This document shows positions 1 through 42,870 of a stretch of 64,000 nucleotides of DNA, one piece after another (position 1 is the stretch's first letter; every line of letters starts with the position of its first letter). The stretch is from assembly GCF_001677475.2 (NCBI RefSeq), contig NZ_CP015229.1. The stretch is one strand, 5' to 3'. A program made the position numbers and the translations under genes. This DNA is from Escherichia coli (GTDB lineage: Bacteria; Pseudomonadota; Gammaproteobacteria; Enterobacterales; Enterobacteriaceae). The notes under the pieces are model-generated. The model did not search any database and was not told the DNA's origin. It was given only the letters and a program-made list of their open reading frames with translations.

Positions 1-1
1 C

Positions 2-469
2 ACGCTGACGGTTTCTAACCTGTACGGTATGGTCACCGGGATGGCGGAAGATCTGCAGAGTCTGGTCGGCGGAACGGTGGTCCGGCGTAAGGTTTACGCC
101 CGTTTTCTGGATGCGGTGAACTTCGTCAACGGAAACAGTGACGCCGATCCGGAGCAGGAGGTGATCAGCCGCTGGCGCATTGAGCAGTGCAGCGAACTGA
201 GCGCGGTGAGTGCCTCTTTTGTACTGTCCACGCCGACGGAAACGGACGGCGCTGTTTTTCCGGGACGTATCATGCTGGCCAACACCTGCACCTGGACCTA
301 TCGCGGCGATGAGTGCGGTTATCACGGTCCGGCGGTCGCGGATGAATATGACCAGCCAACGTCCGATATCACGAAGGATAAATGCAGCAAATGCCTGAGC
401 GGTTGTAAGTACCGCAATAACGTCGGCAACTTTGGCGGCTTCCTTTCCATTAACAAACTTTCGCAGTAA
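2..469 (+). CDS. L: Lambda-like minor tail protein L, C-terminal part (N-terminus lies upstream of the window)
   Basis: Frame open from base 2; translation (TLTVSNLYGMVTGMAED...FLSINKLSQ) matches the phage lambda L C-terminus as recalled; followed by K, I, J in lambda order. Confidence 0.8.
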   Translation, partial: TLTVSNLYGMVTGMAEDLQSLVGGTVVRRKVYARFLDAVNFVNGNSDADPEQEVISRWRIEQCSELSAVSASFVLSTPTETDGAVFPGRIMLANTCTWTYRGDECGYHGPAVADEYDQPTSDITKDKCSKCLSGCKYRNNVGNFGGFLSINKLSQ

Positions 470-542
470 ATCCCATGTATTAGACGTCAACTAGTTTTGC
501 CGACTCGCGCCAACTATACTGGCCGCACCCTTCAGGGCGACA

Positions 543-1298
543 TCAAGTCGCGCTTGTTACTGCCTTCGCTGTCTTTTTCCTGTAGCTTTCCCCTTTCAGT
601 TCGAACATATATCCGTGATGGAGCAGCCTGTCTGCCGCAGCCACCGCCATAGTCTCATCCACGAAGATGCTGCCCCACATGCTGAACGGATGGTTACTGG
701 TTATCACCAGGCTCCCACGTTCATAGCGATGCGCTATTAACTCGAACAGCACACCCGTTTCGGCACTATCGCGTTTGACATAGCCAAGATCATCCACCAC
801 TATCACCCGGTAGCGATCCAGTTTCAGTAGCAGCTCATTCAGTTTCAACTGAGCTCTGGCTTTACGTAGTTCCTGCAACAGCTCTCCTGCGCTGTAGAAC
901 CGGGCCCGGTAGCCCTGACCTACTACGCCATCCACGATCGCTGCCGCCAGATGGCTTTTCCCCAACCCGCTGGCTCCGAACAGCAGAACGTTTTCTCCTG
1001 CATCAACCCAGTCTGTCGTTTCACAGAGTTGCCGGAACTGAGCTCCATTCAGTTCCGGCACCTGACTGAAGTCGTATTCGCTCAGCGTTTTGGCAACTGG
1101 CAACCGGGCCTCCTTTTTATAACGACGCAGTTTTTCACTCTCGCGCCACAGGAGTTCTTCATTGCATAGCGTCAGAAGATAGCGCGATGGTGTCCAGCCT
1201 TCTGCCAGCGCTCGTTTTTCCAGAGCGTGCCATTCAGCTCCAACTCGTGTCAGGCGTAGTTTACGCAGGCTATGTTCAAGGTGATGGATATTGCTCAC
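543..1298 (-). CDS. istB: IS21-family transposition helper ATPase IstB
   Basis: 251 aa ORF with Walker A motif GASGLGKSH and typical IstB length; start overlaps istA stop. Confidence 0.9.
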   Translation of the reverse strand: MSNIHHLEHSLRKLRLTRVGAEWHALEKRALAEGWTPSRYLLTLCNEELLWRESEKLRRYKKEARLPVAKTLSEYDFSQVPELNGAQFRQLCETTDWVDAGENVLLFGASGLGKSHLAAAIVDGVVGQGYRARFYSAGELLQELRKARAQLKLNELLLKLDRYRVIVVDDLGYVKRDSAETGVLFELIAHRYERGSLVITSNHPFSMWGSIFVDETMAVAAADRLLHHGYMFELKGESYRKKTAKAVTSAT

Positions 1299-2794
1299 TG
1301 CGAACCTCCCTTGCCACGCAGTAGTTGCTCATAACTGCTCAGGTTATGCTGTATCACATTGACTACCGGCAACGCCTTTTCTTTTATACCCAGGAAGCGC
1401 ATCAGCCGGTGCAGATCCACGTTTCCCGGGGTATTCAGCATCTGCTCCATACCTTTTGCCACGACTGAGATATCGTCGTATCCTGCAGCCAGTTTCAGGG
1501 CATGTACCATCAGCCTTCCTGCCATATCGGGCTCCAGATGATTACATAAGCGACGCCACAGCCTCCGCCATTCATCGTCCGGCAGGATGTCATTTCTCAG
1601 CGTTGCATGGCAGAACGCACCGGGCTTTTTTGCCAGACTGTCGATCACATGTCGGAAGTCGATACGACGGGCCCGCGTCTTCCCTTTTTCTGGTCTGACG
1701 CGAGGGCAGCTCATGACCTCGCTGCTGCCAACGTAACAGCTCAGACGATCGTCCCATAACCTGACCCGTAACAGTTGACCTACAAGCCGGGAAGGTACGC
1801 TGTAGACGACGTGCTTCACATTGATGGTACTGCTGCGACTAACCCTCACAGTCAGCTCATCATAGTCAGCACTGCGACGAAGCGGCAGCGGTTTCAGATG
1901 AAGACGTTCTTCCTTGACCAGATCCTGATTGTTACGGTTGTGCCGCATAACCTGCTGAGTGATGAAGGCCTGATATTCTTCTATGGTGCTGAAGTCGTTA
2001 CTGCCCCGCAGTATCAGCGCCTGACAGATACGCCTTTTCAGATGTCCGTGGGCACTTTCAACCGAGCCATTTTCGTGGCCCCGACCGGCATTATTGTGTA
2101 CGCCCTGCATTCCGTAGTGCTGACAGAGAGTAGCATAACGCTCAGTCAGCTCGCGGCGTCCATCTTCGCCCTGTTGTTTCCATGCTGCCCTCAGGCTGTC
2201 CGTTTTATGTTCTACCGGCACTCCGCCCAGTTGTCCGAGGGCTTCCTGCAGGCCTTCAGCCAGAGCAGAGAAGCTCTCACCACCCAGAACAACCCGCATC
2301 CAGCTCCAGTGGCTCCATTCCAGACGGAAGTGATACAACTTATGCGCCAACAACTTACCGGCGATGGTGACAACTACACCTTTCAGTTCAGTAAAGTCCG
2401 ACAGGCCTCGCAGGCCGGGCTGATGTTGCTGGCGGAACATGACCTCCTGCTCTGTACCATACTGTAGTTTCCATTCGCGAACCCGCCGTTGCATTGTTCT
2501 TCGAAGGCTGTTGGGGTACTGGCCGGGATATTTATCCTGTAGCATCTCCAGTAGAGTTGTTGGTGTCAGAGCCGGCCTCTCTTTCAACAGAGGAACAAGC
2601 ATGCTGTCCCACACAGCTTCCAGAGGATCTTTGCGTGTGCGCCAGTGCCGAACACTGTTTTTTGCCCACTCTCCTTTTTCGATCCGACGACCAGAACGGA
2701 CTGAGATACCAGCCTTCATGGCCGAGATATGCTGAGTTATACCTTTCTTACGCTGAGTCATATAGTAACTGACCTGAGAAGTATTGAGCGTCAC
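1295..2794 (-). CDS. istA: IS21-family transposase IstA
   Basis: 499 aa ORF immediately upstream of and coupled to istB; N-terminal HTH-like region and integrase-like core; family assignment by architecture. Confidence 0.85.
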   Translation of the reverse strand: MTLNTSQVSYYMTQRKKGITQHISAMKAGISVRSGRRIEKGEWAKNSVRHWRTRKDPLEAVWDSMLVPLLKERPALTPTTLLEMLQDKYPGQYPNSLRRTMQRRVREWKLQYGTEQEVMFRQQHQPGLRGLSDFTELKGVVVTIAGKLLAHKLYHFRLEWSHWSWMRVVLGGESFSALAEGLQEALGQLGGVPVEHKTDSLRAAWKQQGEDGRRELTERYATLCQHYGMQGVHNNAGRGHENGSVESAHGHLKRRICQALILRGSNDFSTIEEYQAFITQQVMRHNRNNQDLVKEERLHLKPLPLRRSADYDELTVRVSRSSTINVKHVVYSVPSRLVGQLLRVRLWDDRLSCYVGSSEVMSCPRVRPEKGKTRARRIDFRHVIDSLAKKPGAFCHATLRNDILPDDEWRRLWRRLCNHLEPDMAGRLMVHALKLAAGYDDISVVAKGMEQMLNTPGNVDLHRLMRFLGIKEKALPVVNVIQHNLSSYEQLLRGKGGSQ

Positions 2795-2890
2795 GCCATT
2801 TCCTGTTGGATCATGTAAATGACACTCAGGTTACAAAACCGGCCAGAATAATCGGCGCCAGGCGGACTGAGTTATTGTCGTCTCATACCC

Positions 2891-3634
2891 ATGACACAGA
2901 CTGAATCAGCGATTCTGGCGCACGCCCGGCGGTGTTCGCCTGCGGAATCGTGCGGCTTCGTGGTGAGAACGCCGGAGGGAGACAGGTATCTTCCCTGCGT
3001 GAATATCTCCGGTGAGCCGGAGGCGTATTTCCGGATGTCGCCGGAGGACTGGCTGCGGGCAGAAATGCAGGGTGAGATTGTGGCGCTGGTCCACAGCCAC
3101 CCCGGTGGACTGCCCTGGCTGAGTGAGGCCGACAGGCGGCTGCAGGTGCAGAGTGATTTGCCGTGGTGGCTGGTCTGCCGGGGGGCGATTCACAAGTTCC
3201 GCTGTGTGCCACATCTTACCGGGCGACGCTTTGAGTACGGGGTGACGGACTGTTACACGCTGTTCCGGGATGCTTACCATCTGGCGGGGATTGAGATGCC
3301 GGATTTTCATCGCGGGGATGACTGGTGGCGTAACGGCCAGAATCTCTATCTGGATAATCTGGAGGCCACAGGGCTGTATCAGGTGCCGTTGTCATCAGCA
3401 CAACCGGGCGATGTGCTGCTGTGCTGTTTTGGTTCATCGGTGCCGAATCATGCCGCCATTTACTGCGGCGACGGCGAGCTGCTGCACCATATTCCTGAAC
3501 AACTGAGCAAACGAGAGAGGTATACCGACAAATGGCAGCGACGCACACACTCCCTCTGGCGTCACCGGGCATGGCACGCATCTGCCTTTACGGGGATTTA
3601 CAACGATTTGGCCGCCGCATCGACCTTCGTGTGA
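2891..3634 (+). CDS. K: Lambda-like tail assembly protein K (JAB/MPN metalloprotease-like plus NlpC/P60-like domains)
   Basis: 247 aa ORF; JAMM motif HSHx7Sx2D (HSHPGGLPWLSEAD); C-terminus matches lambda K as recalled; overlaps I by about 100 nt as in lambda; alternative internal start at 3035 corresponds to the classical 199-aa lambda K. Confidence 0.85.
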   Translation: MTQTESAILAHARRCSPAESCGFVVRTPEGDRYLPCVNISGEPEAYFRMSPEDWLRAEMQGEIVALVHSHPGGLPWLSEADRRLQVQSDLPWWLVCRGAIHKFRCVPHLTGRRFEYGVTDCYTLFRDAYHLAGIEMPDFHRGDDWWRNGQNLYLDNLEATGLYQVPLSSAQPGDVLLCCFGSSVPNHAAIYCGDGELLHHIPEQLSKRERYTDKWQRRTHSLWRHRAWHASAFTGIYNDLAAASTFV

Positions 3635-4203
3635 AAACGGGGGCCGAAGCCATCCGGGCGCTGGTCATGCAGATCCCGGCGTTTCGTCAGAAACTGAGCG
3701 ACGGCTGGTATCAGGTACGGATTGCCGGGCGGGACGTCAGCACGTCCGGGTTAACGGCGCAGTTACATGAGACTCTGCCTGATGGCGCTGTGATTCATAT
3801 TGTTCCCAGAGTCGCCGGGGCCAAGTCAGGTGGCGTATTCCAGATTGTCCTGGGGGCTGCCGCCATTGCCGGATCATTCTTTACTGCCGGAGCCACCCTT
3901 GCAGCATGGGGGGCAGCCATTGGGGCCGGTGGTATGACCGGTATCCTGTTTTCTCTCGGTGCCAGTATGGTACTTGGTGGTGTGGCGCAGATGCTGGCAC
4001 CGAAAGCCAGAACTCCCCGTACACAGACAACGGATAACGGTAAGCAGAACACCTATTTCTCCTCACTGGATAACATGGTTGCCCAGGGCAATGTTCTGCC
4101 TGTTCTGTACGGTGAAATGCGCGTGGGGTCGCGGGTGGCTTCTCAGGAGATCAGCACGGCAGACGAGGGGGACGGTGGTCAGGTTGTGGTGATTGGTCGC
4201 TGA
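3532..4203 (+). CDS. I: Lambda-like tail assembly protein I
   Basis: 223 aa ORF, same length and position as lambda I; Gly/Ala-rich hydrophobic C-terminal half. Confidence 0.85.
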   Translation: MAATHTLPLASPGMARICLYGDLQRFGRRIDLRVKTGAEAIRALVMQIPAFRQKLSDGWYQVRIAGRDVSTSGLTAQLHETLPDGAVIHIVPRVAGAKSGGVFQIVLGAAAIAGSFFTAGATLAAWGAAIGAGGMTGILFSLGASMVLGGVAQMLAPKARTPRTQTTDNGKQNTYFSSLDNMVAQGNVLPVLYGEMRVGSRVASQEISTADEGDGGQVVVIGR

Positions 4204-4263: not shown

Positions 4264-7200
4264 ATGGGTAAAGGCAGCAGTAAGGGGCATACCCCGCGCG
4301 AAGCGAAGGATAACCTGAAGTCCACGCAGTTGCTGAGTGTGATCGATGCCATCAGCGAAGGGCCGGTTGAAGGTCCGGTGGATGGATTAAAAAGCGTGCT
4401 GCTGAACAGTACGCCGGTGCTGGACAGTGAGGGGAATACCAATATCTCCGGTGTCACGGTGGTGTTCCGTGCAGGTGAGCAGGAGCAGACACCGCCGGAG
4501 GGATTTGAATCCTCCGGCTCCGAGACGGTGCTGGGTACGGAAGTGAAGTACGACACGCCGATTACCCGGACCATCACGTCTGCAAACATCGACCGTCTGC
4601 GCTTTACCTTCGGTGTGCAGGCACTGGTGGAAACCACCTCAAAGGGGGACCGGAATCCGTCGGAAGTCCGCCTGCTGGTTCAGATACAACGTAACGGTGG
4701 CTGGGTGACGGAAAAAGACATCACCATTAAGGGAAAAACCACCTCACAGTATCTGGCCTCGGTGGTGGTGGGTAACCTGCCGCCGCGCCCGTTCAGTATC
4801 CGGATGCGCAGGATGACGCCGGACAGCACTACAGACCAGCTGCAGAACAAAACGCTCTGGTCGTCATACACCGAAATCATCGATGTGAAACAGGGCTACC
4901 CGAACACGGCACTGGTCGGTGTACAGGTGGACTCGGAGCAGTTCGGCAGCCAGCAGGTGAGTCGTAATTATCATCTTCGCGGGCGCATTCTGCAGGTGCC
5001 GTCGAACTATAACCCGCAGACGCGGCAATACAGCAGTATCTGGGACGGAACGTTTAAACCGGCATACAGCAACAACATGGCCTGGTGTCTGTGGGATATG
5101 CTGACCCATCCGCGCTACGGCATGGGGAAACGTCTTGGTGCGGCGGATGTGGATAAATGGGCGCTGTATGTCATCGGCCAGTACTGCGACCAGTCAGTGC
5201 CGGACGGCTTTGGCGGCACGGAGCCGCGCATCACCTGTAATGCTTACCTGACAACACAGCGTAAGGCGTGGGATGTGCTCAGTGATTTCTGCTCGGCGAT
5301 GCGCTGTATGCCGGTATGGAACGGGCAGACGCTGACGTTCGTGCAGGACCGGCCGTCGGATAAGGTGTGGACCTATAACCGCAGTAATGTGGTGATGCCG
5401 GATGACGGCGCGCCGTTCCGCTACAGCTTCAGCGCCCTGAAGGACCGCCATAATGCCGTTGAGGTGAACTGGATTGACCCGGACAACGGCTGGGAGACGG
5501 CAACAGAGCTTGTGGAGGACACGCAGGCCATTGCCCGTTACGGTCGTAACGTCACGAAGATGGATGCCTTTGGCTGTACCAGCCGGGGGCAGGCGCACCG
5601 CGCCGGGCTGTGGCTGATTAAAACGGAACTGCTGGAAACGCAGACCGTGGACTTCAGCGTGGGTGCCGAAGGGCTTCGCCATGTGCCGGGCGATATCATT
5701 GAAATCTGCGATGATGACTATGCGGGTATCAGCATCGGTGGTCGCGTGCTGGCGGTGAACAGCCAGACCCGGACGCTGACGCTCGACCGTGAAATCACGC
5801 TGCCATCCTCCGGCACCACTCTGATAAGCCTGGTTGACGGAAATGGCAATCCGGTCAGCGTGGAGGTTCAGTCCGTCACCGACGGCATGAAGGTGAAAGT
5901 GAGCCGTGTTCCTGACGGCGTTGCAGAATACAGCGTGTGGGGGCTGAAGCTGCCGACGCTGCGCCAGCGCCTGTTCCGCTGCGTGAGTATCCGTGAGAAC
6001 GACGACGGCACGTATGCCATCACTGCCGTGCAGCATGTACCGGAAAAAGAAGCCATCGTGGATAACGGGGCGCACTTTGACGGCGACCAGAGCGGCACGG
6101 TGAATGGTGTCACGCCGCCAGCGGTGCAGCACCTTACCGCCGAAGTCACCGCAGACAGCGGGGAGTATCAGGTACTGGCCCGCTGGGACACGCCGAAGGT
6201 GGTGAAGGGCGTGAGCTTCATGCTTCGCCTGACCGTGGCAGCGGACGACGGCAGTGAGCGGCTGGTCAGCACAGCCCGGACGACGGAAACCACATACCGC
6301 TTCAGACAACTGGCGCTGGGGCGTTATATGCTGACGGTCCGGGCGGTAAATGCCCGGGGGCAGCAGGGTGATCCGGCGTCGGTATCGTTCCGGATTGCGG
6401 CACCGGTAGCGCCTGTCACTATTGAACTGATACCGGGGTATTTTCAGATAACGGCGGTCCCGAAACTGGCTGTATATGACCCGACGGTACAGTTTGAGTT
6501 CTGGTTATCGGAAAAGCGGATTATCGATATCAGGCAGGTTGAAACCACAGCCCGCTATCTTGGTACGGCGCTGTACTGGATAGCCTCCGGACCGGATATT
6601 GAGCCGGGCAATAATTATTATTTTTACGTTCGCAGTGTGAATACCGTCGGCAAATCGGCATTTGTGGAGGCTGTTGGCCAGCCGGGTAACGATGCTGAGA
6701 AATATCTCCATTTTTTTGAAGGGAAAATAAACAGCACCCTGCTGGGGCAGGAGCTGAACGATCGTATTAATGCCTCGGCATTGCGCAGTGAAGTTGAGCA
6801 ACTGGAGGATGAGATCAATCAGCAGATAGAGAGTGATATTGCTGAAGTGACCCAAAAAATCGGGGAGACAGAAAACAGCCTCACGCAGCTGGTTGCGAAA
6901 AAAAATGATGAGCTGTCACTGGGTATATCACAGGTGAGCCAGAGAGTGGATAACGTCAGCAGCGAACTCACGCAGACGGTCAGTCAGAGTAATGAGGAGA
7001 ATGCACGCCAGATAGCGCAGGTTCGCCAGTATGTGGATCAAAAAAGCAGTGAAATCATGACGACAACGGACCAGAAGCTGGGAGATCAGGAGGCCACCAT
7101 CCAGCAGATACAAAAGGTTCAGACGGACACCAGTAATAACCTGAACAGTATGTGGGCCGTGAAACTGCAGCAGATGCAGGATGGTCGCCTTTATATTGCG

Positions 7201-7965
7201 GGTATCGGTGCCGGTATTGAGAACACCCCCGACGGCATGCAGAGTCAGGTGCTGCTGGCGGCAGACAGGATTGCGATGATTAATCCTGCAAATGGCAACA
7301 CAAAACCGATGTTTGTTGGTCAGGGTGATCAGATATTCATGAATGAAGTGTTCCTGAAATATCTGACGGCTCCCACCATTACCAGCGGCGGTAATCCTCC
7401 TGCATTTTCCCTGACACCGGACGGAAAGCTGACCGCTAAAAATGCCGATATCAGCGGTAACGTGAATGCGAACTCCGGGACGCTCAACAACGTCACGATA
7501 AATGAGAACTGTCAGATTAAGGGGAAACTGTCAGCCAACCAGATTGAAGGCGATATTGTCAAAACGGTCAGCAAGTCTTTCCCCCGCACGAACAGTTATG
7601 CCAGTGGCACCATCACGGTAAGAATCAGTGATGATCAGAAATTTGACCGGCAGGTCATGATACCGCCAGTGTTGTTCCGTGGTGGTAAGCATGAGAATTT
7701 CAACAGTAATAACCAACAGTCATACTGGTATTCAACCTGCCGGTTAAGAGTGACCCGCAATGGTCAGGAGATTTTTAATCAGTCCACGACGGATGCTCAG
7801 GGCGTATTTTCCTCAGTTATAGATATGCCTGCCGGACAGGGGGCGCTGACACTGACATTCACCGTATCTTCATCAGGAGCGAATAACTGGACACCAACAA
7901 CCAGTATCAGCGATCTGCTGGTTGTGGTGATGAAGAAATCCACAGCAGGTATCAGTATCAGCTGA
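4264..7965 (+). CDS. J: Lambda-like tail tip / host specificity protein J (1233 aa) with divergent C-terminal receptor-binding region
   Basis: N-terminal about 800 aa match lambda J as recalled ([21 protein letters not shown]...); C-terminal third diverges and is longer. Confidence 0.9.
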
Positions 7966-7982
7966 ATTTTATAACCCATAAC

Positions 7983-8008
7983 GGGCGTCAGAAATGACGC
8001 CTTTTTTA
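7983..8008 (+). terminator. Rho-independent terminator after J
   Basis: Stem GGCGTCA/TGACGCC with GAAA loop followed by TTTTTT. Confidence 0.6.
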
Positions 8009-8031
8009 TTGCAGAAAAGCGAGAGGTAATT

Positions 8032-8631
8032 ATGCGTAAACTTTATGCCGCCATTTTGTCCGCAGCCATTTGTCTGGCCTTATCCGGTGCGCCTGCATGG
8101 GCGTCTGAACATCAGTCCACGCTGAGCGCGGGGTATCTTCATGTCTCGACGAACGTTCCCGGCAGCGATGATCTGAACGGGATTAACGTGAAATACCGTT
8201 ATGAGTTTACGGACACACTGGGTATGGTGACGTCATTCAGCTATGCAGGAGACAAGAATCGCCAGCTGACCCGTTACAGCGATACCCGCTGGCATGAAGA
8301 TTCCGTTCGTAACCGCTGGTTCAGCGTAATGGCGGGGCCGTCTGTGCGCGTGAATGAATGGTTCAGCGCGTATGCGATGGCGGGTGTGGCTTACAGCCGT
8401 GTGTCGACTTTCTCCGGGGATTATCTCCGCGTAACTGACAATAAGGGGAAAACGCACGATGTGCTGACCGGAAGTGATGACGGTCGCCACAGCAACACGT
8501 CTCTGGCGTGGGGAGCTGGCGTGCAGTTTAACCCGACCGAATCCGTGGCTATTGATATTGCTTATGAAGGCTCCGGCAGTGGCGACTGGCGCACTGACGG
8601 TTTCATCGTGGGTGTCGGTTATAAGTTCTGA
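8032..8631 (+). CDS. lom: Lom-like outer membrane protein (Ail/Lom/PagC family)
   Basis: 199 aa ORF with signal peptide (MRKLYAAILSAAICLALSGAPAWA) and terminal aromatic residue (YKF); lambda lom position downstream of J. Confidence 0.85.
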   Translation: MRKLYAAILSAAICLALSGAPAWASEHQSTLSAGYLHVSTNVPGSDDLNGINVKYRYEFTDTLGMVTSFSYAGDKNRQLTRYSDTRWHEDSVRNRWFSVMAGPSVRVNEWFSAYAMAGVAYSRVSTFSGDYLRVTDNKGKTHDVLTGSDDGRHSNTSLAWGAGVQFNPTESVAIDIAYEGSGSGDWRTDGFIVGVGYKF

Positions 8632-8657
8632 TTAGCCAGGTAACACAGTGTTATGAC

Positions 8658-8686
8658 AGCCCGCCGGGTTCAGGCGGGCTTTTTTG
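8658..8686 (+). terminator. Rho-independent terminator after lom
   Basis: Stem AGCCCGCC/GGCGGGCT followed by TTTTT. Confidence 0.65.
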
Positions 8687-8696
8687 TGGGGTGAAT

Positions 8697-10787
8697 ATGG
8701 CAGTAAAGATTTCAGGTGTCCTGAAGGACGGAGCGGGTGAGCCTGTCGTAAACTGTGCGATTGAATTGCGAGCCAGAAGAACCAGTCCGACAGTTGTGGT
8801 TAATATTGTGGCAACCTGTCTTACGGGAAGTGATGGCGGGTATACTATTAATGCTGAGCCGGGATTTTATGATGTATTTTTGTCCCGCTCAGGGCATCCT
8901 CCTGTAAAGGCGGGGGAAATTTATGTTGCACCGACAGATGAGCCGGATACGCTGAATGCTTTTCTGGATGCACCAAAGGAGGGTGATTTACGCCCTGAGG
9001 TAATGAAGCGTTTTGAGGAAATGGTAAATACCGTTGTTCGCTTGTCTGAGCAGGTGGTCAGTGACAGGGAGAGAGCAGAAACAGCTGCTGATGATGCAAT
9101 CAATGCAGCAACATCTGCGGCGGTTAGTAAGGATGAGGCAGAAGAGCTAAAAAATCAGACACAGCAGAGCGCCGAAGCTGCAGCCGGAAACGCACAGCAG
9201 ACGGCACAGGATGTGACGACAACCGCAACGGCCCGTGATGATGCGGAACGTTTTGCGGGTGAGGCAGAAAACAGCGCACAGTCATCAGGCACAGCGCGGG
9301 ACGAATCAGTCGATGCCGCCGAACGCGCCCGCCTTTATCATAATGCCGCATCATCAGCAGCGACCAGTTCAGAACTGTCGGCAAATGCGGCGCTGGGGCA
9401 CAAAAACAGTGCCGCCGAATACGCCCGACAGGCTAAAGCCAGCCAGGATGCAGGTGCAGACAATGCGCAGGAAGCGAAACAGTACAGGGATGAGGCGCAG
9501 CAGATAGTTGATGACCTGAATGCAACAAATGCCTCCACGACAGAAAAAGGTCTGGTGCAACTCTGTAGTGATACGGACAACGACAGCGAGGAACTGGCTG
9601 CCACGCCAAAGGCTGTCAAAGACGTCATGGACGAGGCGAAAACAAAAGCGCCACTGGACAGTCCGGCCTTCACCGGCACCCCAACCACCCCAACCCCACC
9701 GGATGATGCCGCCGGTCTGGAAGCAGCGAACGCAGCGTTTGTGCGCAAACTGCTTGCTGCGCTGGTTGGCTCATCGCCGGAAGTTCTGGACACCCTGAAC
9801 GAGCTGGCAGCGGCGCTGGGCAATGACCCGAACTTTGCGACGACAATCACAAACGCGCTGGCAGGCAAACAACCGCTTAATGACGTCTTAACGGCAATCA
9901 GCGCACTGACGCAACGGGCAGATAATCTTCTGTACTTCAATACAGACGGGAATGCCTCACTGTCTCTGCTGTCAGAGAAGGGCCGCGCATTACTGGCGCA
10001 TGACACGGCTGAAGCCATGCGCACGGAGCTTGAGCTGAACGCGGCTGCGACGATGGAACCCCAGAGTGATATCCGTGACCGCACACCGGGCAGGCTGGCC
10101 CTGTCCGGGATGTATGGGTTTGGACAGGCATTCACCAGCACTGACGCTCTGGCGTTTGAGGGGCTGTCTGATTTCGTTGAGTGGTTGAAGAAAGTCACGC
10201 CGGGGCGGTATGCGGTCAGTATTACAGACTCCTCGCAACTGCTTACCGGTACCACGCAATTTAACGGCATTATTGATGTGATGTGGTCACCGTACGCCAA
10301 CAGTGAATCCGACACAGTCCGCAAATTTAAAACCCTGATGTGCTACAACCAGTATTATCAGGGTGAACACTGTATTCACTATATGCAGTACCGGTACAAC
10401 GACAGCGATAACAGCTGGAACATGTCATCGCGGGTAGTTGTATACGACGGAGATTCACTGGCGTACCTGCTGTCCAGGATGGCGGGCTCAGGCTCATATT
10501 ATAAATACCCGGCCGTTGGTGTGCCGATTATGGCGGCATATCAGGGGGAGAGTTTTGGTGCAGATGCGTCTCTGGGGCTCGGTGATATTGTGCCGGGTTC
10601 CCGTCTTGGCCCTCTGGCTATGAGTGCACGGGTTAGCGATACAGGGACATACGCATCCTCACCGCAGGTTGTGATTGGCGGTGCTGGTGAATACAACTTC
10701 CCCGGTCGTTACACGGCGCTTTCGGGGACCCGCATTAGTCACGATACAACGCGTGGCTATATCGGTCTTTTTGTACGCATTGAGTAA
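8697..10787 (+). CDS. stf: Prophage side tail fibre protein (Stf-like)
   Basis: About 696 aa ORF (ATG at 8697; the ORF track starts at GTG 8691); Ala/Gln/Glu-rich fibrous central region; followed by tfa. Confidence 0.8.
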   Translation: MAVKISGVLKDGAGEPVVNCAIELRARRTSPTVVVNIVATCLTGSDGGYTINAEPGFYDVFLSRSGHPPVKAGEIYVAPTDEPDTLNAFLDAPKEGDLRPEVMKRFEEMVNTVVRLSEQVVSDRERAETAADDAINAATSAAVSKDEAEELKNQTQQSAEAAAGNAQQTAQDVTTTATARDDAERFAGEAENSAQSSGTARDESVDAAERARLYHNAASSAATSSELSANAALGHKNSAAEYARQAKASQDAGADNAQEAKQYRDEAQQIVDDLNATNASTTEKGLVQLCSDTDNDSEELAATPKAVKDVMDEAKTKAPLDSPAFTGTPTTPTPPDDAAGLEAANAAFVRKLLAALVGSSPEVLDTLNELAAALGNDPNFATTITNALAGKQPLNDVLTAISALTQRADNLLYFNTDGNASLSLLSEKGRALLAHDTAEAMRTELELNAAATMEPQSDIRDRTPGRLALSGMYGFGQAFTSTDALAFEGLSDFVEWLKKVTPGRYAVSITDSSQLLTGTTQFNGIIDVMWSPYANSESDTVRKFKTLMCYNQYYQGEHCIHYMQYRYNDSDNSWNMSSRVVVYDGDSLAYLLSRMAGSGSYYKYPAVGVPIMAAYQGESFGADASLGLGDIVPGSRLGPLAMSARVSDTGTYASSPQVVIGGAGEYNFPGRYTALSGTRISHDTTRGYIGLFVRIE

Positions 10788-10801
10788 TAAGGAAATAAGA
10801 C

Positions 10802-11380
10802 ATGAAAATCAGAGCGGTGAAAGGCATCAGAAACGCGCATTATCTTGAAAATGGTGCGGTTGACTGCGAGGTGTTATTTGAAGGTGAAACGGAGTTCGTC
10901 CTGTATACCGCCATACAGGATGATATGGCCCCGACAGGCCAGCATGTCTGGCAGGAGCTGCAAAGCGGGAAATGGGGCGAAATCGCCCCGTTCACCGTCA
11001 CGCCGGAACTTATTGCAGCGGCAAAGGATGCCAAAAGGCGGGAAATTGAGGCATGGCGCGACAGTCAGGAAAACGTTGAGTTTATTTTCACGTTTGATGG
11101 CCGTCGTTTTGATGGCGGAAAAACCTCGCAGTCACGCCTTGCCCCCGTGGTTGCAACAGCACAGGCCGGACTGCTTCCGGAGGGATTTTTCTGGACTGAT
11201 GCGGATAATAATAACGTCGTACTGACCAGGGAGAAACTTATTGCGCTGAACGATGCCATGATGGTGGCCATGGTGGCGGAGGGCTTTAAAATCCACGAAC
11301 GTCAGCGGGAGATGAAAGAGGAACTGAGCAGCCTGGAGGATTTACGCTCAATCAGAGCGATGGCGATTAGCAGTAATTAG
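10802..11380 (+). CDS. tfa: Tail fibre assembly protein (Tfa-like chaperone)
   Basis: 192 aa ORF immediately downstream of stf; Tfa-like length and position. Confidence 0.8.
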   Translation: MKIRAVKGIRNAHYLENGAVDCEVLFEGETEFVLYTAIQDDMAPTGQHVWQELQSGKWGEIAPFTVTPELIAAAKDAKRREIEAWRDSQENVEFIFTFDGRRFDGGKTSQSRLAPVVATAQAGLLPEGFFWTDADNNNVVLTREKLIALNDAMMVAMVAEGFKIHERQREMKEELSSLEDLRSIRAMAISSN

Positions 11381-11470
11381 CGGTCAATTCTGGGCTCTTT
11401 GTCTGCTCCTTCACCGTCTGGAATTGTGTGTCAATTAGCCTGGAATTAATCGGGTTCAGATTGTTTTGTT

Positions 11471-11513
11471 GTGGCAAAATTGGGACAAAAGGGGCAAAAA
11501 TGGGGCAAAAAAA
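11471..11513. repeat. Four tandem approximately 10-bp GGGGCAAAA-like units (phased A-tracts)
   Basis: GTGGCAAAAT / TGGGACAAAA / GGGGCAAAAA / TGGGGCAAAAAAA read directly from the sequence, helically phased. Confidence 0.7.
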
Positions 11514-11805
11514 GAGTAGGTTATTGTGGTTTATTGTAGTTGCTGATATGTTTTAATTCATTGAAAATGAAATAAAATACTTATGAGTCAGATGGTTGCA
11601 ATTTTTGTCCTTACTTGTTCAGGTTGTATTGTTCTTTCTTACTAATTTCTTGATTTTGCGACATTTAAAAGCGACTCAATTCGTTATATGGCATCAGAAG
11701 AGTATGCGTCATGCCGGAATGCCCAGCATAAGAAATCTGATATAAAAACAGTGGCGTGTATGGTACGGATTAGAGGGGAAAATGTCAGCACATTTGCGAA
11801 ATGAA

Positions 11806-11836
11806 TCAAAAAGCCCGCAGCAATGTGCGGGCGTTA
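11806..11836 (-). terminator. Rho-independent terminator downstream of uspF
   Basis: On the minus strand: stem GCCCGCA/TGCGGGC followed by TTTTTGATTC, directly after the uspF stop. Confidence 0.6.
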
Positions 11837-11839
11837 GTG

Positions 11840-12355
<516 letters not shown>

Positions 12356-12414
12356 TTAGATCAAAGGAGGAAGAATAAGCAGAAAAAGCCCGCCATAACA
12401 GCGGGCAGGAGGAT

Positions 12415-13548
12415 TTAGAACTGATAAACCAGACCTAAAGCGACAATATCATCGGTAGAGATGCCGTTGGCAGCGTAGAAGCTGTCATCTTCATCCAACA
12501 GGTTGATTTTATAGTCAACATAGGTGGACATGTTTTTATTGAAATAGTAAGTCGCGCCAACATCGGCGTATTTAACCAGATCTTTATCATCAACACCTGC
12601 CGGGTTGTCTGCACCACCGGCAGCGTGCAGGTCACGGCCTTTAGACATCAGGAAAGAGACTGCCGGACGCAGACCAAAATCAAACTGGTACTGTGCAGTA
12701 ACTTCAAAGTTCTGGGTTTTGTTTGCAACAGCATAATCGCTGTCGCCAAACGGGGTCATATTACGCGTTTCTGAATACATGGTTGCCAGGTAAATATTGT
12801 TAGCATCGTATTTTAGCCCAGCAGTCCACGCGTCTGCTTTATCACCACCCGCCGCAGTATGGTTAACCTGGTCATTGGTGCGGTCAGAAGAGGTGTATGC
12901 CGCACCAGCGCTAAAGCCCATGCCTAAATCATATGTTGTGGAAAGACCCCAGCCGTCACCGTTTTCATGGCGAACATCACGTCCGTTGTTGGTGCCTTCC
13001 TGACCATTACTGGCACCTTCGTTGTTACCTTGATACTGCACCGCGAAGTTCAGACCATTTACCAGACCGAAGAAATCAGTATTACGATAAGTCGCGACGC
13101 CATTGGCACGACCAGTCATAAAGTTGTCTGCATTGGTATAAGAGTCACCGCCAAATTCAGGCAGCATATCGGTCCAGCCTTCGATGTCGTACATTACGCC
13201 ATAATTACGTCCGTAATCGAAAGAACCGTAATCTGCAAATTTCAATCCGGCAAATGCCAGACGGGTCCATGACTGGTTTTTTGAGGATTCAGTGTTGTTT
13301 GCCTGAATATTGTATTCCCATTGACCGTAGCCAGTGAGTTGATCGTTAATTTGGGTTTCGCCTTTAAAACCCAGACGCGCATAGCTCTGGTCGCCATCTT
13401 TCGCTGAATTATCAGAAAAATAATGCAGGCCATCAACTTTGCCATACAGATCTAATTTGTTGCCGTCTTTATTATAAACTTCGGCTGCATGTGCAGCACC
13501 TGCGGCGAGCAGGGCAGGAATTAAAAGTGCCAGTACTTTGCTTTTCAT
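12415..13548 (-). CDS. ompN: Outer membrane porin OmpN (OmpC/OmpF family)
   Basis: 377 aa porin with signal peptide and C-terminal ...LVYQF; located between uspF and micC/ydbK as in K-12. Confidence 0.85.
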
Positions 13549-13775
13549 TGAATAAATCCTTTAGTTATTTTATTTGCCTTTTATCCCCATTTCGGGGAGT
13601 GAAAACATCCTAAAGGAGAAGTTCAGTTAGCCGATAAATATCATTTGTTACGCCTTAAGTAAAACCTTAATCAAATAATTCCTCTGAAATGACAATAAGT
13701 CTTGTGAATGTATCGAAGATAATACATACAAAATAAAAATTATACTTTTAATTTGCTATACGTTATTCTGCGCGG

Positions 13776-13884
13776 GTTATATGCCTTTATTGTCACAGAT
13801 TTTATTTTCTGTTGGGCCATTGCATTGCCACTGATTTTCCAACATATAAAAAGACAAGCCCGAACAGTCGTCCGGGCTTTTTTT
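13776..13884 (+). ncRNA. micC: MicC small regulatory RNA (Hfq-dependent, represses ompC)
   Basis: Sequence GTTATATGCCTTTATTGTCACAGATTTTATTTTCTGTTGGGCC...CCCGAACAGTCGTCCGGGCTTTTTTT matches recalled MicC including the terminator hairpin; ompN-ydbK intergenic position. Confidence 0.9.
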
Positions 13885-13913
13885 TAGAATTGGATAATCC
13901 TTATCCAGAGCAT

Positions 13914-16900
13914 TTAATCGGTGTTGCTTTTTTCCGCTTTTCCGGCCATTTGTGCCAGGAAGTCATAGCGTTTTTGCAAATCAGCTGCGGCATCTTTCCA
14001 TAACTGTTCTGCCACTTCTGGCTGCTGCGAATTCAGACGACGGAAACGCTGCTCGTGAAGTAACGTTTCTTCCAGTGCTTCTGACGGCGGGCGTGAATCC
14101 AGCGCCAGCGGCAGTTTGCCTTCATCGGCACGACGCGGATCAAAGCGATATAGCGGCCAGAAGCCGGTAGCAGTGAGTTGGCGCATCTGGTCGTGACTGA
14201 GTGCCAGATCGTAACCATGCTCTTCACACGGGCTATAAGCGATGATCAGCGATGGCCCCGGATACGCTTCCGCTTCCTGAATCGCTTTCACCGTCTGGTT
14301 GAGCTGCGCGCCGAGAGAAATCTGCGCCACATAAACATGACCGTACATCATCATACTGACGCCAAGATCTTTACGCGCTTTACGTTTGCCGTGCTCGCCG
14401 AACTTAGTTACTGCACCCAGCGGTGTCGCTTTCGACGCCTGACCACCGGTGTTGGAATAGCATTGCGTATCCAGCACCAGAATGTTGATGTTTTCCGTCA
14501 AACTCAATACATGATCCAGACCGCCAAAGCCGATATCGTAAGCCCAGCCATCACCACCAATCAGCCAGATTGATTTTTCCACCAGTGCATCTGCGTCACG
14601 TAGCAGTTCATGTGCTTCGGCAACATCGTTGAGTTGCTGGCGTAAAGCTGCAACCTGCTCACGACGAACCTCTGGCGTAGCGTCTGATTTCAACGCCGTC
14701 AGTAATTCCGTCGGGATTTTATCGGCAAATTGATCCAGCAGACGAAGCACGCGGACACGGTGTTGATCGACCGTCAGGCGGAAACCAAGGCCAAATTCGG
14801 CGTTATCTTCAAACAGCGAGTTCGCCCATGCCGGCCCACGACCGTTGGCATCGGTGGTATACGGTGTAGAGGGCAGGTTACCGCCATAAATTGAAGAACA
14901 GCCGGTGGCGTTAGCGATCAACATCCGGTCGCCATAGAGCTGAGTCAGCAATTTAATATACGGCGTCTCGCCACAACCGGAGCAAGCACCTGAATATTCA
15001 AACAGCGGTGTAATCAGCTGCGATGTACGAATATCAATACGTTCCAGTTTGCTACGGTCGATTTCTGGCAGGTTGAGGAAGAAATCGTAATTGATTTTCT
15101 CTTCTTCGACATGTTCCAGGCGCGACATCATATTGATGGCTTTAATCTCTGGATTCTGACGGTCTTTCGCCGGGCAAACTTCGACGCACAGGTTACAACC
15201 GGTGCAATCTTCCGGAGCCACCTGCAAGACATATTTCTGCCCGCGCATATCACGCGATTTCACATCCAGCGAATGCAGGCTGGCAGGGGCGTTTTCCATC
15301 GCTTCAGGCGGTACCACTTTTGCGCGAATAGCTGAGTGTGGGCAAGCGGCGACGCAGTGGTTACATTGGGTACAGAGTTCCTCTTTCCAGATGGGGATCT
15401 CTTCGGCGATATTGCGTTTTTCCCAGCGCGTGGTGCCCATCGGCCAGGTGCCGTCTGGCGGCAGCGCCGAAACGGGGAGGGCATCACCAAGCCCGGCGAG
15501 CATCGCAGCGGTTACGGTTTTCACGAAATCAGGGGCGGCATCGGAAACCACTGGCGGTCGATTGGCGCTGTGCGGATTTACCGGTTGCAACGGAACTTCT
15601 TCTACGGATTCACGCGCCAGCGCCAGAGCCTGCCAGTTGCGCTCCACCAGATCCTGACCTTTGCTACTGTAACTTTTGGCAATCGCACCCTGCAATTCTG
15701 CGAGGGCGCTATCGCCAGGCAGAATTTGCGTCAGATGGAAAAAAGCCATCTGCATGACGGTATTAATACGGGCCGCCAGGCCACATTCGCGGGCGATTTT
15801 CGCTGCGTTAATCACATAGAAGCGCGCTTTTTTCTGGTTTAGCACGGCCTGAACTTCCTGCGGCAAGCGCGACCACACTTCATCTGCGCTGTACGGCGTG
15901 TTGAGCAGGAAAATGCCGCCAGGTTTTAAACGCTCAGCCATCTGATATTTATCGATAAACTGCAACTGGTGGCAGCCAACAAAATCAGCCTGGGAAATGA
16001 GATAAGCGGAACGAATCGGCTGTTCGCTCACGCGAAGGTGAGAAACCGTCAGGCCGCCCGCCTTTTTGGAGTCGTAAACAAAATAGCCCTGTGCGTACCA
16101 CGGCGTGGAATTACCGATAATCTTGATATTGTTTTTGGTCGCGGAAACGCTGCCATCACTACCAAGGCCATAAAACAAGGCTTCCAGTTTCGCCGAGTTT
16201 GGCAGGGTGTTTTCCGGCAACGGCAGTGACAGATTGGTCACATCATCGTAAATACCAACCGTAAAGCGCGCTTTCGGTTTAGCCGCGTTGAGCTCGGCAA
16301 ATACCGCCAGTACACAGTCCGGGCCAAATTCTTTGGATGAAAGACCATAGCGCCCACCAATGACACGGGGCAGGATTTCACGCTCGCCATTATTAAAAGC
16401 TTCTGCCAGTGCGGTCATCACATCCAGATAGAGCGGTTCTGCCTGGGCACCAGGTTCTTTGGTTCTGTCCAGTACCGCCACGCTGCGTACGGATCCCGGC
16501 AGAGCTTGTAGCAAGTGTTTGGCGGAGAAGGGACGGTACAGGCGAACTTTCAGCACGCCAACTTTTTCGCCACGGGTTAGCAATTCATCAACCACTTCTT
16601 CACAGGTGCCAATGGCAGAGCCCATCAGGATAATCACCCGTTCCGCTTGCGGATGCCCGTAATATTCAAACGGCTGATACTGACGACCTGTCGCGGCAGA
16701 GAAATCATTCATCGCCTGTTCAACATGGTCATAGACCGCGTTGTACCATGGGTTGGTGGCTTCGCGAGACTGGAAATAAGTGTCAGGATTGGCGGACGTA
16801 CCGCGGATCACCGGATGTTCCGGGTTGAGTGCCCGGGCGCGATGAGCATCAATTTCGGCCTGCGGCATGAGATCAAGAATCGTGTCATCGGCCAGCGGGA

Positions 16901-38753: not shown

Positions 38754-38779
38754 GCATATCAACCTGCGAGTACCCTACA

Positions 38780-40093: not shown

Positions 40094-40193
40094 CGTGTCG
40101 CCTGGCCCTGGTGAGGTAAAGCGCCAGGGCCAGAAGTCGATACGACCTGTGCTATGATTCATAAATCACAACAATAACAACAGACTGAATCGA

Positions 40194-41716: not shown

Positions 41717-41760
41717 CGTCCTGATGCTGGACGTTCTAATTTTTAGCATGTGATACCTAA

Positions 41761-42808: not shown

Positions 42809-42820
42809 CGAATATACAAA

Positions 42821-42846: not shown

Positions 42847-42870
42847 CTTTTTTAATGGCATGGAGTGCAT

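What the first reader, a model, noticed from the sequence alone, without database searches (positions are those of the whole stretch)
2891..3634. K reading frame is open 48 codons upstream of the classical lambda K start and contains a complete JAMM-type motif
The ORF runs from 2891 (MTQTES...), whereas the classical 199-aa lambda K would begin at M49 (3035). The motif HSHPGGLPWLSEAD (HxHx7Sx2D) and a candidate upstream Glu (PAESCGF) suggest that the longer protein is the functional JAB/MPN plus NlpC/P60 product.
Basis: partly seen in the sequence, partly recalled or inferred. Interest (0 to 1): 0.3.

Follow-up and report, generated by a model that had tools for sequence, protein, structure and literature searches.

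The report
Full-length lambda-type tail protein K

Summary
Observation confirmed. Window 2891..3634 (+) is an intact 247-codon ORF, 96% identical to lambda K. It carries a complete JAMM motif (E19, H68-S69-H70, S78, D81) followed by an NlpC/P60 triad (C121, H187, H199).

Interpretation supported. Pfam Prok-JAB needs residues 3-98: it scores 52 bits on the long form and 23 bits, below its cut-off of 25, on the 199-aa form. Homologues at 33-58% identity start at the same N-terminus and conserve P17, E19, C21, G22, N38 and F47, but not M49. An AlphaFold2 model (pLDDT 96.6) builds residues 1-48 into the JAMM fold.

The 199-aa lambda K is an artefact. J02459/NC_001416 lack one G after position 14266 (window 3025). 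Every independent lambda sequence examined has it, including a cI857 ind1 Sam7 genome, and encodes the 247-aa protein.

Not novel. The JAMM motif in K was published in 2003 and the JAB+NlpC/P60 architecture in 2006. Current annotation already uses 247 aa. [quoted passage not shown]

Local peculiarity: an ISEc10 element (478..2888) sits exactly at the K start codon. The ORF stays intact, but K is separated from gene L, so its expression is probably impaired.

The parts
1..469 (+). 3' part of tail-tip gene L (stop TAA 467-469); the gene starts beyond the window edge
   Evidence: The ORF 29..469 translation matches the lambda L C-terminus. In lambda and phage 21 the L stop lies 5 and 4 nt before the K ATG.
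473..477 (.). Left copy of the 5-bp target-site duplication CCATG made by the IS insertion
   Evidence: The boundary was fixed by comparison with an ISEc10 copy in E. coli 510016, which is flanked by ACCAT/ACCAT.
478..2888 (-). ISEc10 (IS21 family) insertion: istB 543..1298 (-), istA 1295..2794 (-), terminal inverted repeats 477-525 / 2840-2888
   Evidence: 98-99.8% identical to elements annotated as ISEc10 istA/istB in many E. coli genomes. Inverted repeats; ORFs. Phage homology stops at the L stop region and resumes at 2888.
2889..2893 (.). Right copy of the target-site duplication CCATG; it supplies the ATG of K
2891..3634 (+). Gene K, full length: 247 aa, 28.2 kDa; tail tip assembly protein with JAMM and NlpC/P60 domains
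   Evidence: 96% identical to the 247-aa lambda K. phrog_30 covers residues 1-247. AlphaFold2 pLDDT 96.6.
2891..3205 (+). JAMM/MPN+ (Prok-JAB) metalloprotease domain, residues 1-105; E19 at 2945-2947, H68-S69-H70 at 3092-3100, S78 at 3122-3124, D81 at 3131-3133
   Evidence: Pfam PF14464, 52.4 bits, residues 3-98. Residues conserved in 62 homologues. Fold matches PfJAMM1 5ld9/5lda at rmsd 2.6 over 107 columns, and 2kks.
3025..3025 (+). The G that is missing from the lambda reference (after J02459 position 14266); with it the frame runs continuously from 2891
3019..3037 (+). Classical lambda K start: GGAGG (3019-3023), 11-nt spacer, ATG for M49 (3035-3037)
   Evidence: M49 is not conserved in distant homologues.
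3221..3562 (+). NlpC/P60 (C40) papain-like domain, residues 111-224; C121 at 3251-3253, H187 at 3449-3451, H199 at 3485-3487
   Evidence: Pfam PF00877, 49 bits. Conserved residues. Fold matches MepS/Spr, LytE and Acd33800.
3532..4203 (+). Gene I (223-aa reading), the probable substrate of K: N-terminal ubiquitin-like domain ending in G100-G101 (3829-3834), then the tail-tip plug domain. It overlaps K by 103 nt
   Evidence: ORF. phrog_32 / Lambda_tail_I. GG position. Ub-like assignment from Iyer et al. 2006. Virion structures resolve gpI only from residue 101 or 135 onward.
4264..7965 (+). Gene J, central tail fibre, 1233 aa; the downstream partner in the L-K-I-J tail-tip module
   Evidence: ORF. 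Same gene order in lambda, phage 21 and 20 other loci.

Best explanation
Window 2891..3634 is the normal, full-length gene K of a lambda-like prophage in the E. coli chromosome. Its 247-residue product is a non-structural tail-tip assembly enzyme with two protease domains. The N-terminal JAMM/MPN+ zinc metalloprotease occupies residues 1-105; its catalytic Glu19 and the first helix and two strands lie in the 48 residues that the classical annotation omits. A C-terminal NlpC/P60 papain-like domain occupies residues 111-224.

The most likely mechanism is that the JAMM domain recognises the ubiquitin-like N-terminal domain of the next gene product, gpI. It cleaves after the Gly100-Gly101 that ends that domain, once gpI has docked with J and L, and so leaves only the C-terminal plug domain of gpI in the finished tail tip.

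The 199-residue 'classical' K is not a biological product. It was annotated because the 1982 lambda reference sequence lacks one G, which puts the true start out of frame.

What is shown and what is inferred:
- Shown here: ORF, domains, motif, conservation, fold, and the reference error.
- Taken from the literature: K is required for tail assembly, is not found in virions, and is reported to cleave gpI.
- Inferred: the exact cleavage site, the role of the NlpC/P60 half, and the expectation that in this prophage the ISEc10 insertion at the start codon lowers K expression.
For: - ORF and motif.
- Pfam: Prok-JAB 52.4 bits on residues 3-98 and NLPC_P60 49 bits on residues 111-224. The 199-aa form drops to 23.1 bits for JAB, below the cut-off of 25.
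- Distant homologues: 2777 hits; full-length relatives at 35-50% identity cover the N-terminus.
- Conservation in 62 homologues: H68, D81, D120 and H187 are invariant. E19, S69, H70, S78, C121 and H199 are at 90% or more. Six conserved positions lie in residues 1-48.
- Codon-position pattern of variation in codons 1-48 is 7/3/22.
- AlphaFold2 model: pLDDT 96.6, pTM 0.91. Residues 3-36 form a helix and two strands of the N-domain.
- Foldseek: PfJAMM1, also solved with the ubiquitin-like SAMP2 (5ld9/5lda), plus NlpC/P60 endopeptidases.
- Reference error: J02459/NC_001416 lack one G relative to the window and phage 21. PV340536, LC730321, DE3, KT232076, lambda imm434 and MW057783 all have it. MW057783 carries exactly the four cI857 ind1 Sam7 marker changes.
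- IMG/VR contigs: 0 with the deletion allele against 51 with the G allele.
- The exact 247-aa lambda K occurs in 21,118 collection blocks against 403 for the 199-aa form.
- Literature: JAMM motif in K (PMC300881). JAB+NlpC/P60 next to Ub-like I, with predicted cleavage at the C-terminal Gly (PMC1779556). gpK absent from virions by mass spectrometry (PMC10721106). gpI resolved only from residue 101 (PMC11101478). Meeting report that gpK cleaves the Ub-like domain from gpI (PMC12908700).
Against: - No expression or protein data exist for this prophage.
- The IS insertion removed the native upstream context, and no SD-like sequence or promoter-like site lies upstream of 2891. The gene may therefore be poorly made here.
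- The experimental claim that gpK cleaves gpI is available only as a conference summary.
- 'Residue 101 onward resolved' could equally mean a flexible, uncleaved N-domain, which is how the authors read it.
- An additional 199-aa product from GGAGG-N11-ATG cannot be excluded.
- Zinc binding and catalysis were not testable here.
Confidence: 0.9

Rival explanations
1. The 199-residue protein starting at M49 (ATG 3035) is the real or main product, as classically annotated. The upstream 48 codons would be an untranslated or separately translated leader.
For: GGAGG lies 11 nt upstream of ATG 3035 and curators marked it as the RBS in lambda imm434. No SD precedes ATG 2891. J02459, RefSeq NC_001416 and several records annotate 199 aa. 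Clusters of 199-aa gene calls exist.
Against: - The JAB domain would lose its catalytic Glu and about 40% of its fold.
- Codons 1-48 evolve as coding sequence and hold six highly conserved residues.
- M49 is not conserved.
- Distant homologues begin at the upstream start.
- The annotation traces to a one-base omission in the reference.
- The ten 199-aa contigs examined carry other indels or alternative gene calls, not a shared allele.
Confidence: 0.03
2. Both products are made. The 247-aa enzyme comes from the L-coupled start, and a 199-aa NlpC/P60-only form comes from internal initiation at M49. This would resemble other lambda nested pairs (C/Nu3, S107/S105).
For: An internal GGAGG-N11-ATG is present in the window and in close lambdoid relatives. 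Lambda uses nested starts elsewhere (J02459 annotates C and nu3). Iyer et al. note K versions with only an NlpC/P60 domain in some prophages.
Against: The Met is replaced by Ile/Leu/Val in most homologues at 33-50% identity, so it is not a conserved feature. GGAGG is forced by the coding sequence E-P-E-A. The 11-nt spacing is longer than optimal. No data show a second product.
Confidence: 0.08
3. The missing G in the lambda reference is a real mutation of the sequenced cI857 S7 stock, not a reading error. Laboratory lambda would then get by with a split or truncated K.
For: J02459, NC_001416, OR974322 and OR474059 all lack the G. Exact 199-aa K calls occur in 403 collection blocks, 188 of which have a longest contig of 20-50 kb.
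Against: - MW057783 has all four cI857 ind1 Sam7 marker substitutions and no other difference in 36080-48441, yet it has the G.
- PV340536 (stf-frameshifted, PaPa type) and LC730321 (stf intact, Ur type) both have it.
- OR974322 keeps the reference coordinates exactly and comes from a chicken swab, so it is probably control DNA or reference-guided. OR474059 is an UNVERIFIED engineered strain.
- None of the ten 199-aa contigs read has this allele.
- The 76-aa out-of-frame product is not on record anywhere.
- IMG/VR holds 0 against 51 contigs.
Confidence: 0.05
4. K is mainly an infection-stage cell-wall hydrolase: its NlpC/P60 domain would cut peptidoglycan as part of the virion, and the JAB domain would be secondary.
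For: The NlpC/P60 fold is closest to peptidoglycan endopeptidases (MepS, LytE). There is a weak hit to TIGR02219 'putative phage cell wall peptidase'. The lambda peptidoglycan-cutting activity is still unidentified (PMC11101478).
Against: gpK was not detected in virions by mass spectrometry and is not resolved in any tail structure. The TIGR02219 score of 22.6 is far below its cut-off of 81.9. K lacks any signal peptide or membrane segment in the model. Iyer et al. argue that the papain-like domain acts on the Ub-like protein.
Confidence: 0.07

Closest known systems
Bacteriophage lambda gpK, tail tip assembly protein K (lambda K family; TAPK of Iyer, Burroughs & Aravind 2006)
   Same: 96% identity over all 247 residues to the K encoded by independently sequenced lambda genomes. 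Same L-K-I-J gene order, same 103-nt overlap with I, same JAB + NlpC/P60 architecture.
   Different: An ISEc10 element separates it from L. There are 11 amino-acid differences from lambda K. It differs from the database entry AAA96551/NP_040598 (199 aa) only because that entry is truncated by the reference-sequence omission.
Prokaryotic JAMM/MPN+ deubiquitinase-like peptidases (Pfam PF14464 Prok-JAB; PfJAMM1, HvJAMM1 desampylase, Mec+/CysO peptidase, 2kks)
   Same: E-x(n)-H-S-H-x7-S-x2-D motif, fold (rmsd 2.6 A to 5ld9), and pairing with a beta-grasp ubiquitin-like substrate that ends in Gly-Gly.
   Different: It is fused to a second peptidase domain. Its substrate Ubl is the N-terminal domain of a structural tail protein, which implies a peptide-bond, precursor-type cleavage rather than removal of an isopeptide-linked modifier.
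NlpC/P60 (MEROPS C40) peptidases, e.g. E. coli MepS/Spr, B. subtilis LytE; RcGTA g14
   Same: Cys-His-His triad in the conserved order, Pfam PF00877 above its cut-off, and matching fold. RcGTA genes 13-14-15 parallel L-K-I-J.
   Different: It is cytoplasmic and non-virion, with no export signal. Its substrate is unknown and is probably a protein rather than peptidoglycan.
Pseudomonas F-pyocin PA0639
   Same: Reported homologue of gpK that is absent from mature particles, i.e. an assembly-only factor.
   Different: It belongs to a tailocin rather than a phage. It was not compared directly here.

Membership tests
Lambda K / TAPK tail tip assembly protein family | Sequence similarity to lambda K over the full length | tested here: met
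   96% identity to the 247-aa lambda K. phrog_30 covers residues 1-247, E 8e-163. 95-96% DNA identity to many lambdoid phages.
Lambda K / TAPK tail tip assembly protein family | Position in the tail-tip module between L and I-J | tested here: met
   The L 3' end (1-469), K, I (3532-4203) and J (4264-7965) are in lambda order. The only interruption is the ISEc10 insertion between L and K.
Lambda K / TAPK tail tip assembly protein family | Required for tail assembly but absent from the virion | not testable with these tools
   Known for lambda from the literature; no data for this prophage.
JAMM/MPN+ metalloprotease (Pfam PF14464 Prok-JAB) | Complete motif E...H-S/T-H-x7-S-x2-D | tested here: met
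   E19, H68-S69-H70, S78 and D81; all conserved in at least 90% of 62 homologues.
JAMM/MPN+ metalloprotease (Pfam PF14464 Prok-JAB) | Profile match above the curated cut-off | tested here: met
   52.4 bits against a cut-off of 25 for the 247-aa form. The 199-aa form scores 23.1 bits and fails.
JAMM/MPN+ metalloprotease (Pfam PF14464 Prok-JAB) | MPN fold | tested here: met
   AlphaFold2 model at pLDDT 96.6. Foldseek hits to 5ld9/5lda, 2kks, AMSH, CSN5 and Rpn11 at probability 1.00.
JAMM/MPN+ metalloprotease (Pfam PF14464 Prok-JAB) | Zinc binding and (iso)peptidase activity on a ubiquitin-like substrate | not testable with these tools
   Only a meeting report says gpK cleaves the Ub-like domain of gpI.
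NlpC/P60 (C40) peptidase | Catalytic Cys-His-His/polar triad in conserved order | tested here: met
   C121 (D-C-Y), H187 and H199/H200, invariant or conserved at 90% or more.
NlpC/P60 (C40) peptidase | Profile match above the cut-off, and matching fold | tested here: met
   PF00877 at 49 bits against a cut-off of 23. Foldseek hits to MepS, LytE, Acd33800 and Spr.
NlpC/P60 (C40) peptidase | Peptidoglycan (gamma-D-Glu-mDAP) endopeptidase activity | not testable with these tools
   No assay was possible. The NCBIfam cell-wall peptidase models all score far below their cut-offs.
IS21 family, ISEc10 (the inserted element) | istA + istB gene pair, terminal inverted repeats, short target duplication | tested here: met
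   499-aa and 251-aa ORFs. 98-99.8% identity to annotated ISEc10. 49-nt inverted repeats. 5-bp duplication CCATG.

The most novel reading that the evidence does not exclude
Beyond processing gpI, one of the two protease domains of K may have a second, so far unassigned job. One possibility is that the JAMM domain strips host Bil-system ubiquitin-like conjugates from the central tail fibre J as a counter-defence, as Hör et al. 2023 speculated for DUB-containing tail assembly proteins. Another is that the NlpC/P60 domain performs a different tail maturation cleavage, for example gpH to gpH*, whose protease is not named in the papers read here. Nothing here tests either idea. The evidence shows only that both active sites are intact and strongly conserved.
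Probability: 0.15. Interest if true: 0.6.

Novelty: already known. Interest (0 to 1): 0.15.

Why it matters
For this window it matters little: it is a correctly readable, well-known phage gene.

The useful by-product is a curation point. The canonical lambda reference (J02459/NC_001416, and the 199-aa K protein entries derived from it) omits one G. That omission hides the catalytic glutamate and 40% of the deubiquitinase-like domain of an essential tail gene.

Recent papers still quote gpK as 199 residues, for example the review. Anyone who models, clones or mutates lambda K from the reference will work with a truncated protein.

The ISEc10 insertion at the start codon is a clean example of an IS cutting a translationally coupled phage gene off from its upstream partner without damaging the ORF.

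Tried and rejected
- **Programmed frameshift or real split gene in lambda:** rejected, because every independent lambda sequence has the extra G, including one with the cI857 ind1 Sam7 genotype.
- **The two other records that share the deletion (OR974322, OR474059):** they are not independent. One keeps the reference coordinates exactly and comes from a chicken swab; the other is an UNVERIFIED engineered strain.
- **Contigs on which the exact 199-aa K is called:** I tried to use them as evidence for the deletion allele. All ten read have GAGGCG. They owe the short call to homopolymer indels, Ns or the gene caller's choice.
- **Lookup of the 76-aa out-of-frame reference ORF product:** not on record. 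This is weak evidence, because a gene caller might drop it anyway.
- **Literature on the reference discrepancy:** searches with '14266', 'sequencing error' and 'gene K' found nothing relevant. The Liu et al. 2013 ribosome-profiling paper and the Casjens & Hendrix 2015 review are not held. From memory only, not a tool result: the breseq lambda example lists '14,266 +G' as an intergenic L/K change.
- **A shared ISEc10 insertion site in E. coli 510016 and NCCP 13717:** suspected because BLAST extended 10-22 nt into the flanks. This is a chance resemblance of a different target, ACCAT.
- **Strain identification:** the nearest complete genome (OkiPb01695) has a different prophage at this site, and no complete E. 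coli genome holds L-ISEc10-K.
- **PDB by sequence:** only 2kks was found. No solved structure of any K homologue turned up.

Full report
**1. The observation**

Window 2891..3634 (+) is an ATG-initiated ORF of 247 codons ending in TGA. The nearest in-frame stop upstream is TAA at 2849-2851, with no start codon in between (read). ATG 2891 is therefore the only upstream start.

Residue 49 is Met (ATG 3035-3037). It corresponds to the start of the K CDS annotated in lambda, 14276..14875, 199 aa, in both J02459 and NC_001416. The string HSHPGGLPWLSEAD occupies 3092-3133 and fits H-x-H-x7-S-x2-D. The Glu of PAESCGF is residue 19, at 2945-2947.

**2. Is the N-terminal extension real protein?**

- **Pfam.** The 247-aa form matches Prok-JAB (PF14464) at 52.4 bits (cut-off 25) over residues 3-98, profile positions 3-103 of 114. 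It matches NLPC_P60 (PF00877) at 49 bits over residues 111-224. The 199-aa form keeps NLPC_P60 but retains only profile positions 63-103 of Prok-JAB and falls to 23.1 bits, below the cut-off. The 48 residues alone score 23.7 bits, E 4.6e-5.
- **Distant homologues.** An exhaustive HMMER search of 1.84 billion cluster representatives gave 2777 relatives at E of 0.001 or better. The full-length ones at 35-50% identity are 228-262 aa long. They align from query residue about 4-10 and from their own residue about 4-15, so they begin where this ORF begins.
- **Conserved residues.** In an alignment of 62 such proteins (33-58% identity), G22, N38, H68, D81, D120, H187 and S206 are invariant. P17, E19, C21, F47, S69, H70, S78, C121, H199 and H200 are conserved in at least 90%. 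Six of these positions lie in residues 1-48. Met49 is not conserved; the consensus there is Ile.
- **Coding signature.** The rest of the gene shows the same pattern, 38/28/106.
- **Structure.** An AlphaFold2 model built on that alignment has mean pLDDT 96.6 and pTM 0.91. It places residues 3-15 (helix), 21-27 and 30-36 (strands) inside the N-terminal domain. Foldseek against the PDB matches that domain to Pyrococcus JAMM1 (5ld9, and 5lda in complex with the ubiquitin-like SAMP2; rmsd 2.6 Å over 107 columns), to 2kks, and to AMSH, CSN5 and Rpn11. It matches the C-terminal domain to MepS/Spr, LytE and other NlpC/P60 endopeptidases. The sequence search of the PDB aligns PAESCGF with the NEACG of 2kks.

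**3. Why lambda K was ever 199 residues**

Aligning the window, phage 21 and NC_001416 shows that the lambda reference lacks one G in GAGGC-TATTTCC, 10 nt before the classical ATG. The missing base corresponds to window position 3025 and falls after J02459 position 14266.

In the reference, the upstream ATG (14133, 5 nt after the L stop) therefore opens a 76-codon out-of-frame ORF. Only the internal Met gives a long frame.

In the phage collection only J02459, NC_001416, OR974322 and OR474059 match the deletion allele exactly. OR974322 is a 'lambda isolate' from chicken cloacal swabs with reference-identical coordinates. OR474059 is an UNVERIFIED engineered strain. Neither is independent.

Every independently sequenced lambda examined has the extra G and a continuous 247-codon frame: PV340536, LC730321, prophage DE3, KT232076 and lambda imm434. 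Two of them come from different lineages. PV340536 keeps the laboratory stf frameshift, while LC730321 has the +C after 20835, in the stf region (orf-401) that is split in the reference. Both share the same five differences from J02459: deletion of G139, +G after 14266, 20661 A>G, 22444 A>G and 25662 T>C.

The decisive record is MW057783, deposited as 'Campylobacter phage CJLB-4'. Over 36080-48441 it differs from J02459 only by 37589 C>T, 37742 C>T, 43082 G>A and 45352 G>A. From my own knowledge, that is the cI857 ind1 Sam7 genotype, the one sequenced in 1982 and sold commercially; its S gene is split at codon 56 as expected for Sam7. This record also has the +G and an annotated 247-aa K.

Supporting counts:

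| Test | Deletion allele / 199-aa form | +G allele / 247-aa form |
|---|---|---|
| IMG/VR contigs with the allele | 0 | 51 |
| Collection blocks holding the exact lambda protein | 403 | 21,118 |

None of the ten contigs read for the 199-aa form has the reference allele. The 76-aa out-of-frame product is on record nowhere.

I conclude, at about 0.9 confidence, that the missing G is an error of the reference sequence. Lambda itself encodes the 247-residue protein.

**4. What it does**

The JAMM motif of lambda K was pointed out in 2003, using the 199-aa entry (PMC300881). Iyer, Burroughs and Aravind (2006) described the family as JAB + NlpC/P60, encoded next to tail assembly protein I. The N-terminus of I is a ThiS/MoaD-like ubiquitin fold ending in a conserved Gly, and they predicted that the JAB domain cuts there (PMC1779556).

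In this window gene I (3532-4203) has that domain ending in G100-G101, at 3829-3834. Two cryo-EM studies of the lambda tail resolve gpI only from residue 101 (PMC11101478) or residue 135 (PMC10721106). gpK itself is absent from virions by mass spectrometry and is unresolved in Ur-lambda.

[quoted passage not shown] It adds that the cleavage occurs only after gpI has engaged other tail-tip proteins, which enforces the order of assembly (PMC12908700).

The best-supported mechanism is therefore a catalytic, non-structural assembly protease. Its JAMM half needs the N-terminal 48 residues. The role of the equally conserved NlpC/P60 half remains unassigned. A peptidoglycan role is unlikely given K's absence from virions, and the NCBIfam cell-wall peptidase models score far below their cut-offs.

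**5. Local context**

The window is E. coli chromosome. The tail end of a lambdoid prophage lies next to uspF-ompN-nifJ, which I recognise as the Rac-type site (the site assignment is from my knowledge of K-12).

Phage homology ends just after the L stop (467-469) and resumes at 2888. In between is a 2411-bp ISEc10 element (IS21 family) at 478..2888, with istB and istA on the minus strand, 49-nt terminal inverted repeats, and 98-99.8% identity to annotated copies. Comparison with a copy in strain 510016, which is flanked by ACCAT on both sides, fixes the ends. The target duplication here is CCATG, at 473-477 and 2889-2893.

The IS therefore landed on the K start codon, and the duplication regenerated the ATG. 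In lambda and phage 21 the K ATG follows the L stop by 5 and 4 nt with no Shine-Dalgarno sequence. That arrangement implies translational coupling, which is my inference. Here the upstream sequence is the IS end, with no SD-like motif and no promoter-like site, plus two terminator-like hairpins on the + strand inside the IS.

The ORF is intact, but K, and probably I and J through polarity, are likely to be poorly expressed. No complete E. coli genome in the collection has this configuration.

**6. Rivals**

- **A 199-aa main product:** about 0.03.
- **Dual products from the internal GGAGG-N11-ATG:** about 0.08. This is not excluded, but the Met is not conserved and GGAGG is dictated by the codons for E-P-E-A.
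- **A genuine stock mutation in the sequenced lambda:** about 0.05.
- **A virion cell-wall hydrolase:** about 0.07.

**7. Novelty and score**

The domain architecture, the motif, the substrate prediction and now the activity are published or reported. Current annotation already gives 247 aa: PGAP 'C40 family peptidase' and 'Mov34/MPN/PAD-1 family protein', and the phage 21, PV340536 and MW057783 records.

The only thing I could not find stated in the searchable literature is the explicit link between the 199-aa annotation and a one-base omission in J02459. That is a curation note, useful because recent structural and review papers still quote 199 residues, but not a discovery.

Interest 0.15; novelty: already known.

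Noticed in passing
window 478-2888 (target duplications 473-477 and 2889-2893): An ISEc10 (IS21 family) element is inserted exactly at the K start codon, with a 5-bp duplication CCATG that regenerates the ATG. It separates K from the L stop codon, to which K is normally coupled (4-5 nt, no SD). No complete E. coli genome in the collection shows this L-ISEc10-K arrangement.
   Followed up: yes
window 3025; J02459/NC_001416 after position 14266 (loci L004, L005, L034): The lambda reference sequence lacks one G that is present in all independent lambda sequences, including a cI857 ind1 Sam7 genome. This is why K is annotated as 199 aa. PV340536 and LC730321 also share four further differences from J02459 (deletion of G139, 20661 A>G, 22444 A>G, 25662 T>C), which may be further reference errors.
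   Followed up: yes
L088/L089 (MW057783) and L031 (OR974322): Two GenBank 'environmental phages' are evidently laboratory lambda DNA. 'Campylobacter phage CJLB-4' from poultry faeces carries exactly the cI857 ind1 Sam7 markers. 'Escherichia phage Lambda isolate P6/2022/SA' from chicken cloacal swabs has reference-identical coordinates. These are probably control or spike-in contamination deposited as isolates.
   Followed up: partly
window 3532-3634 (K/I overlap) and 3571, 3631: The start of gene I is annotated inconsistently across records: 223 aa (ATG 3532), 210 aa (ATG 3571, M14) or 190 aa (GTG 3631, overlapping the K stop). The phrog_32 profile begins at residue 12, which favours M14 or M1. 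The 190-aa call would cut into the ubiquitin-like domain.
   Followed up: partly
window 3829-3834 (gpI G100-G101): [quoted passage not shown] A published closed-state tail structure resolves gpI 'from position 101 onward'. That fits cleavage at this site, although the authors describe the N-terminal domain as merely unresolved.
   Followed up: partly
protein search hits P0014, P0037, P0094, P0118 and P0025, P0032, P0041: Singleton database proteins fuse K to I (PF14464+PF00877+PF06805) or L to K (PF05100+PF14464+PF00877). They are most likely assembly or frameshift artefacts at the tightly packed or overlapping gene junctions. They were not examined.
   Followed up: no
window 7965-12400 and L087: The prophage tail end (J, lom-like 8032-8631, side tail fibre 8691-10787, tfa-like 10802-11380) abuts uspF/ompN/nifJ. 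The closest complete genome (OkiPb01695, 99.0% identity over window 10700-14700, the prophage end and adjoining chromosome) carries a different, IS-riddled prophage there, and its chromosome shows 15 separate matches to window 300-3700, a query that is mostly ISEc10.
   Followed up: partly
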